From positions 1-64,000 of IMG/VR virus record IMGVR_UViG_3300032242_002232: a DNA stretch of 64,000 nucleotides; one strand, 5' to 3'. Positions 38,304 through 53,271 of this stretch are shown piece by piece. Position 1 is the first letter of the stretch; every line of letters begins with the position of its first letter. The notes under the pieces are model-generated. The model did no database searches and was not told the DNA's origin. It saw nothing but the letters and a program-made list of their open reading frames with translations. The position numbers were made by a program, and so were the translations under genes. The DNA is from a virus.

Positions 38304-38328
38304 GCTTTTCCCTTCTGATATGAGTAAT

Positions 38329-38394
38329 GAGCCTTTTTACCTTAGGTCATGCTCAGGACCAAGTAGCAGTTTTAGTTATCATGCTCAGGATAAT
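38329..38394 (-). ncRNA. two tandem H-type pseudoknots with identical CUGAGCAU loop
   Basis: TTATC-CTGAGCAT-GATAA-CTAAAAC-TGCT and GGTC-CTGAGCAT-GACC-TAAGGTAAAAAG-GCTC. Confidence 0.7.
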
Positions 38395-38456
38395 TGGTGT
38401 AGCGGAAGCGGAGATTTCGACACGCAGTGTCTCCCAATCCAAGTCGCGTACCAATA

Positions 38457-38624
38457 CTATGAAAGAGAGATAGGTTCGCTATCCTCTTTACGGTTAGCTC
38501 GAAGAGTATCGAGCTTTGCATTAAGTGCTTCAAGATCTTTTGTCATTGCATCAAGCTCACGCTCAATAGACTCAAGATATTTGTTGATGTTCTTCATGAA
38601 CTCATTCAGTTCTTCAGGGGACAT
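38457..38624 (-). CDS. small coiled-coil protein
   Basis: MSPEELNEF..., SD GAGG. Confidence 0.6.
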   Translation of the reverse strand: MSPEELNEFMKNINKYLESIERELDAMTKDLEALNAKLDTLRANRKEDSEPISLS

Positions 38625-38626
38625 AA

Positions 38627-38731
38627 CTACCTCTTTCTCCTGTTGATGATTGATGTGAGCACGATAGTAATGCTTAGCATTACCATAATGCAAACGATTG
38701 AGTTCTCAGATATATCAAACGATACTGACAT
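38627..38731 (-). CDS. 34-aa single-TM peptide (not in ORF track)
   Basis: MSVSFDISENSIVCIMVMLSITIVLTSIINRRKR; SD GAAGGG. Confidence 0.55.
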   Translation of the reverse strand: MSVSFDISENSIVCIMVMLSITIVLTSIINRRKR

Positions 38732-38754
38732 ATTGATCCCTTCTATCTACCACG

Positions 38755-39007
38755 ATGGCAGATAAGTACACCAACCTGATATCCCGAATCTATTGTCCAG
38801 ACACGAGTTTTTTACGGACTCATTGTTTTGACTTCTACTTCGTTAGTAGAGACGCGTTTCGGCTACGCCTAACGCCTTCAATGCGTGTCCTCAAGCTGAT
38901 CAATGCTAGATTACAAGGTCTTTTTCCAACATAGAGTTATAGTCAGTTGTGCGCCTATGCCGGGGAAAACGGCGATGTTCAACCAGGTTGATGTACTTAC
39001 CTGCCAT
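38755..39007 (-). ncRNA. about 250-nt structured RNA closed by a 24-bp stem
   Basis: 38755-38778 vs 38984-39007; both mismatches are G-U only on the - strand. Confidence 0.65.
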
Positions 39008-39014
39008 AATAATG

Positions 39015-39166
39015 AGGAGCAAGGCTATGGAAAAGGGAGGAACGTCACCAGCAGCTCCTCTAGCTTTTATTGCACATTCCTTCGAGTTCCGCTGGTCTAC
39101 CAATATGTGGCTGGATATATCGGGGAATATAGAACCACCTAGCATCCTAGTCATAGCCTTGCTCCT
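39015..39166 (-). ncRNA. about 150-nt structured RNA closed by a perfect 15-bp stem
   Basis: AGGAGCAAGGCTATG/CATAGCCTTGCTCCT; strand inferred from the operon. Confidence 0.6.
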
Positions 39167-39196
39167 GCCCTACATTCTGTCTGACGGGACAGAACC

Positions 39197-39298
39197 CTAT
39201 TTGTGCTCTCTCATATGATTCATGAGAGTCATGTATGCAAATGAAGATCTAACCTCAATTTGTTTTTTACATACTTCACATATAACTATTTTGCTCAA
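39197..39298 (-). CDS. 33-aa C2H2 zinc-finger peptide (not in ORF track)
   Basis: MSKIVICEVCKKQIEVRSSFAYMTLMNHMREHK; TTGA coupling. Confidence 0.6.
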   Translation of the reverse strand: MSKIVICEVCKKQIEVRSSFAYMTLMNHMREHK

Positions 39299-39558
39299 GA
39301 CAAGAGCCGTTTCTTGAAGTCTAATGACGCCTCTTCGATTGTCTCAAAATAGTGACCCCAATAACAGCGACCACTTTCATGATGATAAATCCATGTAACA
39401 AATGGGTGATAGGTGCTGGCAGGAGCATGACATAGGATTACATCACACTCGATATCAGCACTAACCTTGTTTGCAAGAATAGTGGCGCCTGTAGAGACAC
39501 CACCATCTCCCTGTAATACTGTGCCTACCTGAATGGTAGATACTATAGGCCGGCTCAT
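39295..39558 (-). CDS. hypothetical protein
   Basis: PFVTW...YWGHYF. Confidence 0.65.
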   Translation of the reverse strand: MSRPIVSTIQVGTVLQGDGGVSTGATILANKVSADIECDVILCHAPASTYHPFVTWIYHHESGRCYWGHYFETIEEASLDFKKRLLS

Positions 39559-40184: not shown

Positions 40185-40198
40185 TAGAGTCTCCTTTA

Positions 40199-40315
40199 CT
40201 AGTCGTTACACGTCTTATTGTGTAACCTATAAAACAGCGAGTCAACTACTGGAATTTTCCACCAAATTGACCACCATTTATTGTGGTTGTACATACTGCA
40301 GATGAGACTGCTCAT
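40199..40315 (-). CDS. 38-aa peptide (not in ORF track)
   Basis: SD GGAGG; MSSLICSMYNHNKWWSIWW... Confidence 0.4.
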   Translation of the reverse strand: MSSLICSMYNHNKWWSIWWKIPVVDSLFYRLHNKTCND

Positions 40316-40325
40316 GCACCCTCCT

Positions 40326-40469
40326 TTACTTGCAATTAGAGCAATAGTTCATAACTCTTACTTCAGACGGGGCAACAGAATAGACGCGGGAACAATGAGA
40401 GCAGGTAACCTGTGTCATTGGAGTCTTAGTCTTAGGTGTAAACCCCACCTTGATAGATATATGGAACAT
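40326..40469 (-). CDS. Zn-ribbon peptide
   Basis: SD AAGGAGG; CSHC...CSNC. Confidence 0.6.
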   Translation of the reverse strand: MFHISIKVGFTPKTKTPMTQVTCSHCSRVYSVAPSEVRVMNYCSNCK

Positions 40470-40645
40470 AATGCCTCCTTCCACTCCCATAAGGAGTGGG
40501 GGATACACAAGGAAGAATACCTACACACTCATCAAAGAGTCTCAGTAGTAAGTCTTATGTATCCTCCACCTCATACGGAACAGCAGCGCAGCCTTTCGCG
40601 GGGAAAATAGGGGCGAGAGGGCGAACTCATAGTTAAAATGGCAAT

Positions 40646-40692
40646 AAAAAAAGCCCCAGTCATATAGCAATTACACTATACAACTGGGGCTT
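40646..40692 (-). terminator. intrinsic terminator
   Basis: AAGCCCCAGTTGTATAG/CTATATGACTGGGGCTT + T7. Confidence 0.75.
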
Positions 40693-40716
40693 ACGTAAAA
40701 AAAGGGCGGGGGGAAA

Positions 40717-51376: not shown

Positions 51377-51593
51377 ATCAATAAAACGTGAGGTATCTCG
51401 TGTCCAAAAACGTATTCAACTACTTCCGGACCGAGACATAGTAGCTTGGGCTGAAAGCTCTATTTATGACATTGCCAGAAATTTATCTGCTTGGCAAAAG
51501 AAACAAGATCAGTTTTACTTGAATGAAGCCACCTTGGCTGCCGAGGTCTTATATGAGGCACTTGAGACCGTAAAGAGGAGAACTGATGCGTGA
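51351..51593 (+). CDS. hypothetical protein
   Basis: Directly upstream of terminase. Confidence 0.55.
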   Translation: MNLRFKKRKSIKREVSRVQKRIQLLPDRDIVAWAESSIYDIARNLSAWQKKQDQFYLNEATLAAEVLYEALETVKRRTDA

Positions 51594-53271
51594 TGACTTT
51601 GAATTTAATGACGTTGAGCAAGAAGACGATGAAGAATTTGATATTGAATCAATTCTAGAATATGGGGAGGACGATGATGAAGAAGAAGACGAAAATCTTG
51701 CTATTGATGATGGTGATGATGATCCTGACGGTTTTACTCCCCTACACGAAGAAGATCTTGAGAACCAAGATGATGAAATGGATGAGCTTTCTAGAGAATT
51801 CGTTGCATCACTTGTAGAAAAAATTATGTCTTTCATGAAGCTCCTTGTGGGCCATGATCTACACCCATATCAAAAACCTTTAGCCCGTAGAATTATAGAA
51901 TCCGTTATTATTAACGATGGTGAAGAGATAACCGCTCTTGCATCCCGTCAGTCAGGTAAATCAGAGACTGTCGCAGATACTGTGGCAACTTTAATGGTAA
52001 TTCTCCCAAGACTAGCAAAAATGTATCCAGACCTACTGGGTAAGTTTCAAGACGGTATCTGGGTTGGTATGTTTGCTCCAGTTCAAGCACAGGCAGAAAC
52101 TCTTTACTCTAGAACTGTATCTCGCTTAACTAGCGAGCACGCACTGGAGATTTTGGGTGACCCTGAAATTGACGATGTTACTGCTAAGTCCCCGGGAGTA
52201 ACAAGAAACATTAAACTAAAGCATTCTGGTTCTAGTTTAATGATGATGACAGCTAACCCTAGAGCTAAAATTGAATCTAAGTCATTTCACTTAATGATTA
52301 TTGATGAGTGTCAAGAAGCCGATGACTTTATTGTTTCTAAGTCTATTGCCCCTATGGGTGCGTACTACAACGCAACCATGGTAAAGACGGGAACACCTAC
52401 AACGCATAAAAACAACTTCTATAGAGCAATCTCCCTTAACAAAAGAAGACAGGTGGGTAGAAATGGAAAACAAAATCATTTTCAATGGGACTGGAAAGAC
52501 GTTGCAAAATTTAACCCAAACTACGAAAAGTTCATTCGTAAAGAGATGTTACGAGTTGGTGAAGAATCGGATGAGTTTCAACTTTCATACAACTGTAAAT
52601 GGTTGTTGGAGAGAGGGATGTTCGTCACATCCTCGATTATGGACGACCTCGGAGATACAAGCCAGGAGATTCAGAAAAGCTACCACGTCTCGCCAGTCGT
52701 GGTCGGCATTGACCCGGCACGAAAGATGGACTCAACAGTAGTAACTGTTGTTTGGGTTGACTGGGATAGGCCAGATGAGTTTGGTTACTACGACCACAGA
52801 ATTTTAAACTGGCTTGAAATCCAAGGCGATGACTGGGAAGAACAGTATTTTCAGATTGTAAACTTTTTAGGTAACTATGACGTCTATGCCGTAGCTATTG
52901 ACGCCAATGGTGTTGGTGACGCTGTAGCGCAGCGACTTAAGATGCTTCTACCTAGAGCTGAGGTAATCTCAATTACATCTAGCCCCACTGAGCAATCAAA
53001 GCGGTGGAAGCACCTTCAGGCTCTTATTCAACGTCAATTGATCTCTTGGCCAGCTCACGCCAAAACACGGCGCCTGCGTACTTGGAAGCGGTTCTATCAA
53101 CAGATGACTGATGCCGAAGTTCAATACAAAGGACCTAACTTTTTAGTTGCTGCCCCTGAAGAAGCCCATGCGCACGATGACTTTGTGGACTCATTGTCAC
53201 TAGCTTGCGCTTTAACCCAAGAACTAGTAATGCCTACTGTAGAGGTTAGCTCCTCTCCGTTCTTTAAATAA
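51586..53271 (+). CDS. terL: terminase large subunit
   Basis: HPYQ, ASRQSGKS, IIDECQ, TGTP, GIDPA, IDANGVG, HDDFVDS. Confidence 0.93.
   Translation: MRDDFEFNDVEQEDDEEFDIESILEYGEDDDEEEDENLAIDDGDDDPDGFTPLHEEDLENQDDEMDELSREFVASLVEKIMSFMKLLVGHDLHPYQKPLARRIIESVIINDGEEITALASRQSGKSETVADTVATLMVILPRLAKMYPDLLGKFQDGIWVGMFAPVQAQAETLYSRTVSRLTSEHALEILGDPEIDDVTAKSPGVTRNIKLKHSGSSLMMMTANPRAKIESKSFHLMIIDECQEADDFIVSKSIAPMGAYYNATMVKTGTPTTHKNNFYRAISLNKRRQVGRNGKQNHFQWDWKDVAKFNPNYEKFIRKEMLRVGEESDEFQLSYNCKWLLERGMFVTSSIMDDLGDTSQEIQKSYHVSPVVVGIDPARKMDSTVVTVVWVDWDRPDEFGYYDHRILNWLEIQGDDWEEQYFQIVNFLGNYDVYAVAIDANGVGDAVAQRLKMLLPRAEVISITSSPTEQSKRWKHLQALIQRQLISWPAHAKTRRLRTWKRFYQQMTDAEVQYKGPNFLVAAPEEAHAHDDFVDSLSLACALTQELVMPTVEVSSSPFFK

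What the first reader, a model, noticed from the sequence alone, without database searches (positions are those of the whole stretch)
38755..39166. Two adjacent large ncRNAs sharing a UUCCCCG loop motif
Seen: a ~250-nt domain closed by a 24-bp stem lies 7 nt from a ~150-nt domain closed by a perfect 15-bp stem, and neither has a convincing ORF. On the - strand each carries UUCCCCG in a small 5'-proximal hairpin (GCCG-UUUUCCC-CGGC; UAUAU-UCCCCG-AUAUA). Domain 2 also has UUCCUCCCUUUU next to its closing stem. Known: C-rich loops of actinobacterial 6C RNA and Firmicute RsaE/RoxS pair with G-rich ribosome-binding sites, and end-paired rods of this size also recall 6S/Ms1 RNAP-binding RNAs. Inference: phage sRNAs that silence host mRNAs or sequester RNAP.
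Basis: partly seen in the sequence, partly recalled or inferred. Interest (0 to 1): 0.8.

Follow-up and report, generated by a model that had tools for sequence, protein, structure and literature searches.

The report
Conserved structured RNA in freshwater actinophages

Summary
Both end-paired domains are real and sit at the stated coordinates. G·U pairs place them on the - strand, the sense strand of the flanking early genes.

Only domain 2 ("B", window 39015-39166, plus a small hairpin at 39175-39194) is conserved. I found six distinct copies in three lineages of ~100-kb phages that carry WhiB, a MoxR-like ATPase and a VWA protein.
- A covariance model aligns all six end to end.
- 96% of cells pair, and 23 of 35 pairs show compensatory change.
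- An 8-bp helix (P4) closes a 34-nt purine-rich loop that is identical in all six but for one A/U site. Flanking proteins are only 44-74% identical.

Rfam 15 has no match (6S, Ms1, 6C, RsaE, tmRNA, GOLLD, ROOL). The 82-aa ORF is not conserved.

The UUCCCCG hairpins occur only in the window's lineage. The one in domain 1 lies in a stretch that is rewritten even in close relatives.

Domain 1 ("A") is a lineage-specific accessory domain closed by a long stem. Such domains differ in number, order and sequence between lineages.

The invariant loop ends in a canonical SD, 6 nt before an NUG codon. That codon opens a 7-codon ORF ending in P1 in five of six copies.

Best reading (moderate confidence): a new RNA module of the early transcript that loads ribosomes onto a minigene. 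The function is untested.

The parts
39175..39194 (-). h0: small hairpin (7-9 bp) directly 5' of domain B, present in all three lineages.
   Evidence: The stem is kept with a G-C to A-U change in the L004 lineage and a G.U pair in L010.
39015..39166 (-).
   Evidence: Model R1 finds six distinct homologues end to end, E 4e-14 to 8e-45. 96.3% of cells pair, 23/35 pairs have changes on both sides, and 0/500 shuffles reach this.
39152..39166 (-). P1 5' arm. It pairs with 39015-39029 (15 bp, perfect).
   Evidence: 13 of 15 pairs have changes on both sides across lineages.
39107..39138 (-). P3 hairpin. The outer helix is conserved; the tip is variable and, in this lineage only, carries the UAUAU-UCCCCG-AUAUA loop.
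   Evidence: helix 2: 4/6 pairs with changes on both sides; the tip is replaced in the other lineages.
39089..39096 (-). P4 5' arm. It pairs with 39047-39054 (8 bp).
   Evidence: 5 of 8 pairs have changes on both sides and 100% of cells pair.
39055..39088 (-). Invariant 34-nt purine-rich loop, ending in the SD AGAGGAG. One A/U polymorphic site among six sequences.
   Evidence: Single copy in the phage. Absent from 185,579 bacterial and archaeal species genomes apart from one chance 23-mer.
39025..39048 (-). Candidate minigene: GUG plus 6 codons plus UAG (MTFLPFP). The start overlaps the outer two pairs of P4, and the stop lies at the start of the P1 3' arm.
   Evidence: A 7-codon frame is present in 5 of 6 sequences, with an SD spacing of 6 nt in all, and the Thr codon is ACG, ACA or ACC. 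Suggestive only.
38755..39007 (-).
   Evidence: It has no sequence similarity to the accessory domains of the other lineages.
38874..38967 (-). Hypervariable interior of domain A. It contains the GCCG-UUUUCCC-CGGC hairpin.
   Evidence: Replaced by 87-93 unlike letters in the contigs of four runs (table 5). 49.5% identity to L009.
39197..39298 (-). Flanking gene: a 33-aa CxxC...HxxxH mini-protein, directly upstream of the RNA.
   Evidence: tblastn matches in L009, L010 and L005. Many synonymous differences can be read in the sequences.
38627..38731 (-). Flanking gene: a 34-aa hydrophobic peptide with its own SD, directly downstream of the RNA.
   Evidence: One search lists the ORF. It is 82% identical in L009. 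A similar 37-aa peptide sits in the L002 lineage, read.

Best explanation
The gap holds a multi-domain structured RNA that is part of the leftward early polycistronic transcript of a ~99-kb freshwater phage carrying WhiB.

The conserved unit is the hairpin h0 plus domain B. In B, a 15-bp closing helix (P1) and a variable hairpin (P3) frame an 8-bp helix (P4). P4 displays an invariant 34-nt single-stranded purine-rich loop.

I propose the loop is a ribosome-loading site. It ends in a canonical SD placed 6 nt before an NUG codon at the foot of P4. From there a 7-codon minigene runs through the pyrimidine-rich junction and stops in the first bases of the 3' arm of P1. Translation would then melt P4 and P1. 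When folded, the long perfect stems of B and of the neighbouring accessory domains (13-30 bp) are the kind of duplex that host RNase III cuts. On this reading the module couples processing or stability of the early transcript to ribosome traffic.

Shown here:
- the RNA structure;
- its strand;
- the invariance of the loop;
- the SD/NUG/stop geometry.

Inferred, not shown:
- translation of the minigene;
- RNase III cleavage;
- the coupling between the two.

Domain A is a lineage-specific accessory domain, not a second copy of the same kind of RNA.
For: Structure:
- A covariance model built from two sequences recovers the four other distinct homologues end to end.
- 96.3% of cells pair, 23/35 pairs carry compensatory change, 0/500 shuffles reach this, and slid controls pair 35-47%.
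- P4 has five different sequence versions, all 8 bp.

Strand:
- In stems of 13 bp or more I counted about 24 G.U against 5 A.C from the listing. Collapsed by lineage this is roughly 12 against 4.

Selection on the RNA rather than on a protein:
- The 36-nt block is identical in all six except one site.
- Neighbouring proteins are 44-74% identical between lineages, and the adjacent mini-ORF shows many synonymous changes.

Minigene:
- The AGAGGAG-6 nt-NUG spacing is present in all six.
- Five of six have a 7-codon frame with the stop at the P1 3' arm.
- Third-position-only differences occur in ACG/ACA/ACC, in ACA-CGU-GCU against ACC-CGA-GCC, and in CCU-UUU-CCA against CCC-UUC-CCU.

Transcription context:
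- No promoter or terminator above chance lies inside the gap, and the RNA has the orientation of the flanking genes.
Against: - There is no expression data.
- The L004 lineage frame runs on for 33 codons, and L010/G003 start with CUG.
- Within lineages I count about 3 synonymous to 4 non-synonymous events, which is not significant.
- The variable N of NUG is also explained by P4 covariation, and part of the junction can pair with the 5' junction strand (UAGG/CYUA).
- An SD explains only 7 of the 34 invariant bases.
- B is 100-450 nt away from the next gene, and that gene differs between lineages. This argues against simple control of a downstream start site.
- RNase III cleavage is pure inference.
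- The pair counts were made on an alignment fitted to the model.
Confidence: 0.4

Rival explanations
1. Trans-acting stable RNA. B is cut out of the early transcript at P1 or protected by it. Its invariant loop is a docking surface for a conserved host or phage partner, either a protein or another RNA. The 7-codon frame is incidental.
For: - 34 invariant bases are far more than a start site needs.
- The flanking genes differ in the L004 lineage, so B behaves as an independent module.
- Closing stems and the 5' hairpin h0 would stabilise an excised RNA.
- The peptide sequences differ between lineages.
Against: - B has no promoter or terminator of its own.
- I found no complementary target of more than 11 nt in the phage, and no copy or complement of the core in bacterial genomes.
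- No partner has been identified.
Confidence: 0.3
2. Ligand-binding or catalytic RNA. The invariant loop together with the conserved junction bases (ACU, GA, UGAC) forms an aptamer or ribozyme core.
For: The pattern of invariant unpaired bases framed by freely covarying helices is that of riboswitch and ribozyme cores.
Against: - No Rfam model matches.
- There is no expression platform such as a terminator.
- The downstream genes are not conserved.
- The loop has little predicted internal structure.
Confidence: 0.1
3. DNA-level element: an origin, a packaging or attachment site, or hairpin-bounded mobile cassettes.
For: - The invariant core is single-copy.
- The accessory domains are bounded by inverted repeats that share GGCAG...CUGYC, and they have swapped interiors.
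Against: - Mismatches in the stems are mostly G.U on one strand.
- Helices covary with wholly different sequences.
- The core is absent from bacterial genomes, so it is not an attB-matching core.
- The motif is not dispersed in the genome.
- The region lies far from the terminase gene at 51586-53271.
Confidence: 0.05
4. One reading: two sRNAs whose C-rich UUCCCCG loops silence host mRNAs (6C/RsaE-like), or a 6S/Ms1-like RNA that sequesters RNA polymerase.
For: The C-rich hairpins and end-paired shapes exist in this one genome.
Against: - The C-rich loops are not conserved.
- No match to 6S, Ms1, 6C or RsaE at E <= 10.
- The conserved loop is purine-rich.
Confidence: 0.03
5. Protein-coding: the 82-aa ORF at 38906-39154 (-) is a gene.
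For: An AGGAG-7 nt-ATG sits at its start, and the frame is open in the window and in L009.
Against: - All 9 codons that differ between the window and L009 are non-synonymous.
- There is no synonymous change in the 12 core codons across three lineages.
- The L002 lineage has a stop and no start codon in that frame (all three points read).
- PHROGs and Pfam have no hit.
- Its start codon and SD are buried in P1.
Confidence: 0.02

Closest known systems
Minigenes and leader peptides: phage lambda bar minigenes, 3-8-codon toxic minigenes, erm/cat-type leader peptides, the pentapeptide ORF inside 23S rRNA
   Same: A canonical SD sits in front of a frame of a few codons inside a structured RNA, and the stop codon sits where a ribosome would open a helix. 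Minigenes of 3-8 codons are known to act through peptidyl-tRNA and ribosome occupancy (PMC2490762). A minigene also acts as a regulatory element in an operon (PMC8708949). The lambda bar, erm/cat and 23S examples are from my own knowledge.
   Different: 27 further invariant bases lie upstream of the SD. No regulated gene follows directly. The peptide is not conserved across lineages, and one lineage lacks the early stop. Nothing has been tested.
RNase III-processed stems in phage early transcripts (T7 early mRNAs, lambda N leader) and in rRNA precursors
   Same: Long, nearly perfect stems bracket functional RNA segments inside a polycistronic transcript, spaced a few nucleotides apart. The T7, lambda and rRNA examples are from my own knowledge.
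   Different: Cleavage is not shown here. The stems enclose 100-300-nt domains, one of which has a conserved core.
Dual-function sRNAs (SgrS/SgrT, RNAIII/hld, SR1/SR1P)
   Same: A structured regulatory RNA that also carries a small translated frame (own knowledge).
   Different: Those have their own promoters and terminators and known base-pairing targets. Here there is neither.
6C RNA and RsaE/RoxS (C-rich loop sRNAs)
   Same: C-rich hairpin loops exist in this one genome.
   Different: The loops are not conserved in the relatives, and no covariance-model match was found.
6S RNA / Ms1
   Same: An end-paired shape of 150-250 nt.
   Different: No model match. There is no central bubble with two long flanking helices. 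B is a three-way junction with an apical loop.
Large ornate phage-associated RNAs (GOLLD, ROOL)
   Same: Phage-borne, multi-domain, of unknown function, and found in lake metagenomes (10.1101/2024.12.08.627333).
   Different: No Rfam match. The conserved part is much smaller, at about 170 nt.

Membership tests
6S RNA (Rfam 6S and related models) | Match to the covariance model; a long closing helix, a large central bubble and a terminal helix | tested here: not met
   No match at the gathering score or at E <= 10 on 38600-39350. The covariation-supported structure is a three-way junction.
Ms1 RNA | Match to the Rfam model; actinobacterial RNA that binds the RNA polymerase core | tested here: not met
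   No match. Binding cannot be tested with these tools.
6C RNA | Two hairpins with conserved C-rich loops | tested here: not met
   No model match. The C-rich loops are absent from two of the three lineages, or lie in a hypervariable stretch.
RsaE/RoxS | Conserved UCCC motifs in unpaired regions; model match | tested here: not met
   No model match, and the motifs are not conserved.
tmRNA | A tRNA-like domain plus an internal tag frame | tested here: not met
   ARAGORN finds only tRNA-Asn and tRNA-Gln elsewhere in the window. No Rfam match.
GOLLD / ROOL / other Rfam 15 families | Covariance-model match | tested here: not met
   Only two tRNAs reach gathering scores in the window. The best sub-threshold hit in the region is DABA-DC-AT at 21 bits against a cut-off of 56.
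Translated minigene / leader peptide | An SD at 5-9 nt from a start codon | tested here: met
   AGAGGAG, then 6 nt, then GUG, AUG, UUG or CUG in all six sequences.
Translated minigene / leader peptide | The frame is conserved in length and shows purifying selection | tested here: inconclusive
   Five of six sequences have 7 codons, and L004 has 33. There are several third-position-only differences, but too few sequences to test them.
Translated minigene / leader peptide | Ribosome occupancy, or a detected peptide | not testable with these tools
   No RNA run holds the stretch.
RNase III processing site | A duplex of about two helical turns or more without large bulges | tested here: met
   Stems of 15, 26, 24-25, 13-18, 16 and 30 bp.
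RNase III processing site | Cleavage in vivo or in vitro | not testable with these tools
   This needs an enzyme assay or mapping of RNA ends.

The most novel reading that the evidence does not exclude
The invariant loop is a decoy or trap for the host translation machinery. On this reading an abundant early phage RNA captures 30S subunits on an exposed SD and runs them through a 7-codon minigene. This would shift host translation (for example SD-led against leaderless mRNAs, or the pool of particular tRNAs), or would sense ribosome availability to time early-transcript processing. It would be a takeover device built from RNA rather than protein.
Probability: 0.12. Interest if true: 0.8.

Novelty: new variant of a known kind. 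Interest (0 to 1): 0.55.

Why it matters
Few structured RNAs are known from phages of the abundant, hard-to-culture low-GC freshwater Actinobacteria. This one has strong comparative support from only six sequences. Its 34-nt loop has stayed frozen while everything around it changed, which means it touches something highly conserved. If that partner is the ribosome, through an embedded minigene, it would be a natural case of a phage using a minigene-bearing RNA module in its early programme. Minigene effects of this kind have so far mostly been studied as artefacts, such as lambda bar. The modular array of stem-closed domains, with interiors that turn over fast, is also a useful model for how phage non-coding RNA evolves. 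At minimum it is a clean new family for RNA databases.

Tried and rejected
- **Rfam.** Nothing at gathering scores or at E <= 10.
- **Phage GenBank collection.** blastn of the region found no match.
- **Exact-pattern scans with three sub-patterns of the core in IMG/VR.**
  - They recovered only the same two other contigs.
  - All other hits were chance, including a recurrent 17/18-nt match at the 3' end of an ORF in nine prophage records.
- **Metagenome scan.** Four further distinct variants and one chance hit.
- **Genome scan of 185,579 species.** One chance 23-mer in a WWE3 MAG. So there is no host copy and no attB-like core.
- **Search for a target inside the phage.**
  - No complementary stretch longer than 11 nt.
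  - No similar start region elsewhere in the genome.
- **Dispersed DNA motif.** TATCTRYC and GGCAGRTAR are not enriched.
- **Similarity between accessory domains of different lineages.** None.
- **Expression.** No RNA holder is listed among public runs. The four runs laid are DNA contigs.
- **Widening the family through the neighbouring ATPase.**
  - This gave seven loci. The model matched only the two lineages already known.
  - Whole-record searches of five related records gave nothing.
  - G003 holds the locus, but its contig ends cut through B.
  - G002 has tightly packed small genes at the syntenic place instead.
- **Protein search with the 87-aa neighbour.** Only 5 clusters.
- **Published survey.** A survey of candidate phage RNAs (PMC10690425) holds no supplementary text to check.
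- **Motifs considered and dropped.**
  - Not supported by a tool: a tmRNA and a CRISPR-repeat mimic (only a loose resemblance of h0).
  - Judged by eye only, not tested with a tool: a hammerhead core, a CsrA site (the family is generally absent from Actinobacteria) and a prfB-like UGAC shift site (a stop lies 4 codons upstream in that frame).

Full report
**Setting**

The window is the first 64 kb of a 99,213-nt IMG/VR virus record rated complete. Genes between about 29.3 and 42.0 kb run on the - strand. They include a WhiB regulator, a MoxR/CobS-like AAA ATPase and a protein with a weak, sub-threshold VWA match. The rightward block holds Hsp20, HNH, an HslV-like peptidase, terminase, portal and tail genes. 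GC is about 43%. Together with WhiB and the freshwater origin of every related contig and run, this points to a phage of low-GC freshwater Actinobacteria. The host is inferred, not shown.

The finding lies in a gap of about 450 nt on the - strand. Upstream is a 33-aa CxxC...HxxxH mini-gene (39197-39298). Downstream is a 34-aa hydrophobic peptide gene (38627-38731). Both are real genes:
- They recur in relatives.
- The mini-gene shows many synonymous differences (sequences).

**Checking the observation**

- 24 nt at 92% complementarity, with 205 nt between the arms.
- 15 nt at 100% complementarity, with 122 nt between the arms.
- The two domains are 7 nt apart.

As - strand RNA, the two mismatches of the long stem are G.U pairs and the helix extends to 26 bp. 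Both domains fold better than shuffles. Domain 2 has z = -4.4. Domain 1 has z = -6.35 on the - strand and -5.46 on the + strand. The UUCCCCG hairpins and the UUCCUCCCUUUU run are present.

**Relatives**

The 87-aa upstream neighbour led to a second phage, L002. Its equivalent gap shares only two stretches with the window: the mini-gene, and a 38-nt stretch that is 97% identical.

Pattern scans with that stretch gave these distinct sequences:
- L004 (identical to L007 and L011).
- L006.
- L009.
- L010 (identical to L012).

With the window and L002 this makes six distinct sequences in three lineages:
- The window plus L009.
- L002, L006 and L010.
- L004.

Proteins of the syntenic block are 80-98% identical within the window's lineage and 44-74% identical between lineages.

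Two further complete relatives were checked:
- G003 has the locus, but its contig ends cut through it.
- G002 (ATPase 58% identical) has tightly packed small genes at the syntenic place instead.

So the element is an accessory of one sub-group of these phages.

**What is conserved: domain B**

Its parts are:
- **h0:** a hairpin of 7-9 bp.
- **P1:** a closing helix of 13-15 bp whose inner half has unrelated sequence in each lineage.
- **P3:** a hairpin with a conserved outer helix and a free tip.
- **P4:** a helix of 8 bp in every sequence.

P4 closes a 34-nt loop. The 36-nt block that includes the innermost G-C pair is identical in all six sequences except one A/U site.

A covariance model was built from the window and L009 only, with P1, P3 and P4 as its structure. 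It finds the other four end to end at E of about 1e-14 to 1e-16. On that alignment:
- 96.3% of cells pair.
- 23 of 35 pairs have changes on both sides (13/15 in P1, 4/6 in P3, 5/8 in P4).
- 0 of 500 shuffles reach the observed values.
- Sliding the partners by 1-3 columns drops pairing to 35-47%.

The alignment is fitted to the model, which inflates these figures somewhat. P4 was also recovered by RNAalifold on a plain MAFFT alignment, and P1 by a simple helix enumeration.

**Strand**

In stems of 13 bp or more, G.U pairs on this strand far outnumber A.C mismatches. I counted about 24 against 5 from the listing, or roughly 12 against 4 when collapsed by lineage. The structure therefore belongs to RNA in the sense of the flanking genes.

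**Not protein-coding as an 82-aa ORF**
- All nine codons that differ between the window and L009 change the amino acid.
- The twelve core codons show no synonymous change in three lineages.
- The L002 lineage has a stop and no start codon in that frame (all three points read).
- PHROGs and Pfam have no hit.

**Not a known RNA, and not a DNA-level element**
- Only two tRNAs pass Rfam thresholds in the window.
- At E <= 10 the region gives only a 21-bit DABA-DC-AT hit, against a cut-off of 56 bits, and two snoRNA chance hits.
- ARAGORN finds no tmRNA.
- The core is single-copy in the phage.
- The core is absent from one genome of each of 185,579 bacterial and archaeal species, apart from a chance 23-mer. 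It is therefore neither a host-derived sequence nor an attP core.

- The UAUAU-UCCCCG-AUAUA tip of P3 is kept only in the window's lineage. L002-type phages have a 40-nt branched insert there, and L004 has a 14-nt hairpin.
- The GCCG-UUUUCCC-CGGC hairpin of domain 1 lies in 38874-38967.
  - Contigs from four sequencing runs replace this stretch with 87-93 unlike letters (table 5).
  - The same stretch is 49.5% identical in L009, against 93% for B.

The shared C-rich loop is therefore a coincidence of this one genome, and the 6C/RsaE analogy falls with it.

**Domain A and the other accessory domains**

Domain 1 is a real RNA structure within its lineage. The window and L009 differ by eight compensatory pairs, including a C-G to U-A change in a conserved inner hairpin. 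In L009 the closing stem is lengthened by a change on both sides.

It has no counterpart by sequence in the other lineages. Those carry other stem-closed domains in other numbers and orders:

| Lineage | Order, 5' to 3' | Accessory domains |
|---|---|---|
| Window | B, then A | A: 253 nt, 26-bp stem |
| L002 | A', then B, then C | A': 229 nt with a 24-25-bp stem; C: 105 nt with a 13-18-bp stem |
| L004 | 15-bp mini-hairpin, then B, then C, then A | C: 145 nt with a 16-18-bp stem; A: 307 nt with a 30-bp stem |

Several of these stems share GGCAG near the 5' arm base and CUGYC in the 3' arm. h0 is the same duplex with the loop at the other end. The motif is not dispersed in the genome. I have no explanation for this box beyond a common recognition or processing signal.

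**A candidate minigene**

The invariant loop ends in AGAGGAG. This resembles the SDs of neighbouring genes, for example GGAGAAAGAGG before 38624. Six nucleotides later, at the foot of P4, stands an NUG codon:

| Sequence | Codon |
|---|---|
| window | GUG |
| L009 | AUG |
| L002, L006 | UUG |
| L010, G003 | CUG |
| L004 | GUG |

It is followed by an invariant AC. In that frame, five of six sequences have exactly seven codons and then a stop that falls at the first bases of the P1 3' arm:
- **Window lineage:** MTFLP(F/L)P.
- **L002 lineage:** MT(S/G/R)ADLF.
- **L004:** runs on for 33 codons.

Several differences between lineages touch third positions only:
- Thr as ACG, ACA or ACC.
- ACA-CGU-GCU against ACC-CGA-GCC.
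- CCU-UUU-CCA against CCC-UUC-CCU.

Within the window's lineage the variable sites are GUG/AUG, UUC/UUU and UUU/CUU/AUU.

This is suggestive, not proof:
- The N of NUG is also a covarying P4 position.
- The junction is pyrimidine-rich, so some of the apparent synonymy is cheap.
- Part of the junction can pair with the 5' junction strand.
- Within lineages I count about three synonymous to four non-synonymous events.

**How it most likely works**

I commit, at about 0.4, to the following. B is a module of the early polycistronic transcript, since no promoter or terminator above chance lies in the gap. Its loop loads ribosomes onto a minigene. Translation of the minigene opens P4 and P1. When folded, the long stems of B and its neighbours are RNase III-type duplexes. 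Processing or stability of the early transcript would then depend on ribosome traffic.

- **Shown:** the structure, the strand, the invariance of the loop and the SD/NUG/stop geometry.
- **Inferred:** translation, cleavage and their coupling.

The main rival, at about 0.3, is a stable trans-acting RNA whose loop docks a conserved partner. It is favoured by the 27 invariant bases that an SD does not explain, and by the change of flanking genes in the L004 lineage. An aptamer or ribozyme core (0.1) and DNA-level readings (0.05) are less likely, for the reasons given under the rivals.

**Comparison with what is known**

In working principle the nearest things are:
- Minigenes and leader peptides. 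Minigenes of 3-8 codons act through peptidyl-tRNA and ribosome occupancy (PMC2490762), and a minigene can regulate an operon (PMC8708949). Lambda bar and the erm/cat leaders are from my own knowledge.
- RNase III-bracketed segments of T7 and lambda early transcripts and of rRNA precursors (own knowledge).

It is a member of none of them. It fails every family test that I could run (6S, Ms1, 6C, RsaE, tmRNA, GOLLD/ROOL). A published survey of candidate phage RNAs (PMC10690425) could not be checked, because no supplementary data were held.

**Verdict**

This is a real, new, well-supported structured RNA family of narrow distribution and untested function. Interest is 0.55. A frozen 34-nt loop with an embedded SD and minigene is unusual and directly testable, but there is no expression or functional evidence and only six sequences.

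**Limits**
- No RNA run holds the stretch.
- The host is unknown.

Noticed in passing
window 39197-39298 (-): A 33-aa mini-protein with CxxC...HxxxH spacing, overlapping the stop of the 87-aa gene. It is conserved in two lineages with many synonymous changes, so it is a real gene. A possible zinc-binding micro-protein next to the RNA.
   Followed up: partly
window 38627-38731 (-): A 34-aa hydrophobic single-helix peptide gene with its own SD, directly after domain A. The L002 lineage has a similar 37-aa peptide at the same place (L002 3891-4004).
   Followed up: partly
window about 38326-38396 (-); also L009, and L003 about 2555-2690: Two tandem copies of a box containing CCUGAGCAUGA, each followed by an A-rich stretch. 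It recurs in a more distant phage (L003) that lacks domain B.
   Followed up: no
L002 3757-3861; L010; L044 1-160: In the L002 lineage, the stem of accessory domain C covaries while about 70 nt of its interior are nearly identical in four sequences. The interior holds a frame starting AUG ACA AUG (20-33 codons, no SD), with one synonymous ACA to ACU change in G003.
   Followed up: no
L048 end / L044 start (G003, IMGVR_UViG_3300032328_000581): The two ends of this 98,886-nt record fall inside domain B, and about 150 nt of B are missing. The assembly probably broke there because of strain variation.
   Followed up: partly
L031-L033, L035, L037-L040: Nine prophage-like IMG/VR records share a 17/18-nt match to the core, at the 3' end of an ORF ending ...RECAVKA. 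Several of the matches lie near contig ends. I judged this a chance similarity.
   Followed up: partly
window 40185-40716: A second gap of about 530 nt in the same leftward block, with AT skew of opposite sign to its surroundings and a 109-aa + strand ORF (40281-40610). Model R1 finds no second copy of B in the window.
   Followed up: no
all lineages: stems of domains A, A' and C, and hairpin h0: Stem bases share GGCAG(R)...CUGYC. h0 is the same duplex in the reverse arrangement, so the 3' arm of one domain could also pair with the 5' arm of the next. Unexplained.
   Followed up: partly
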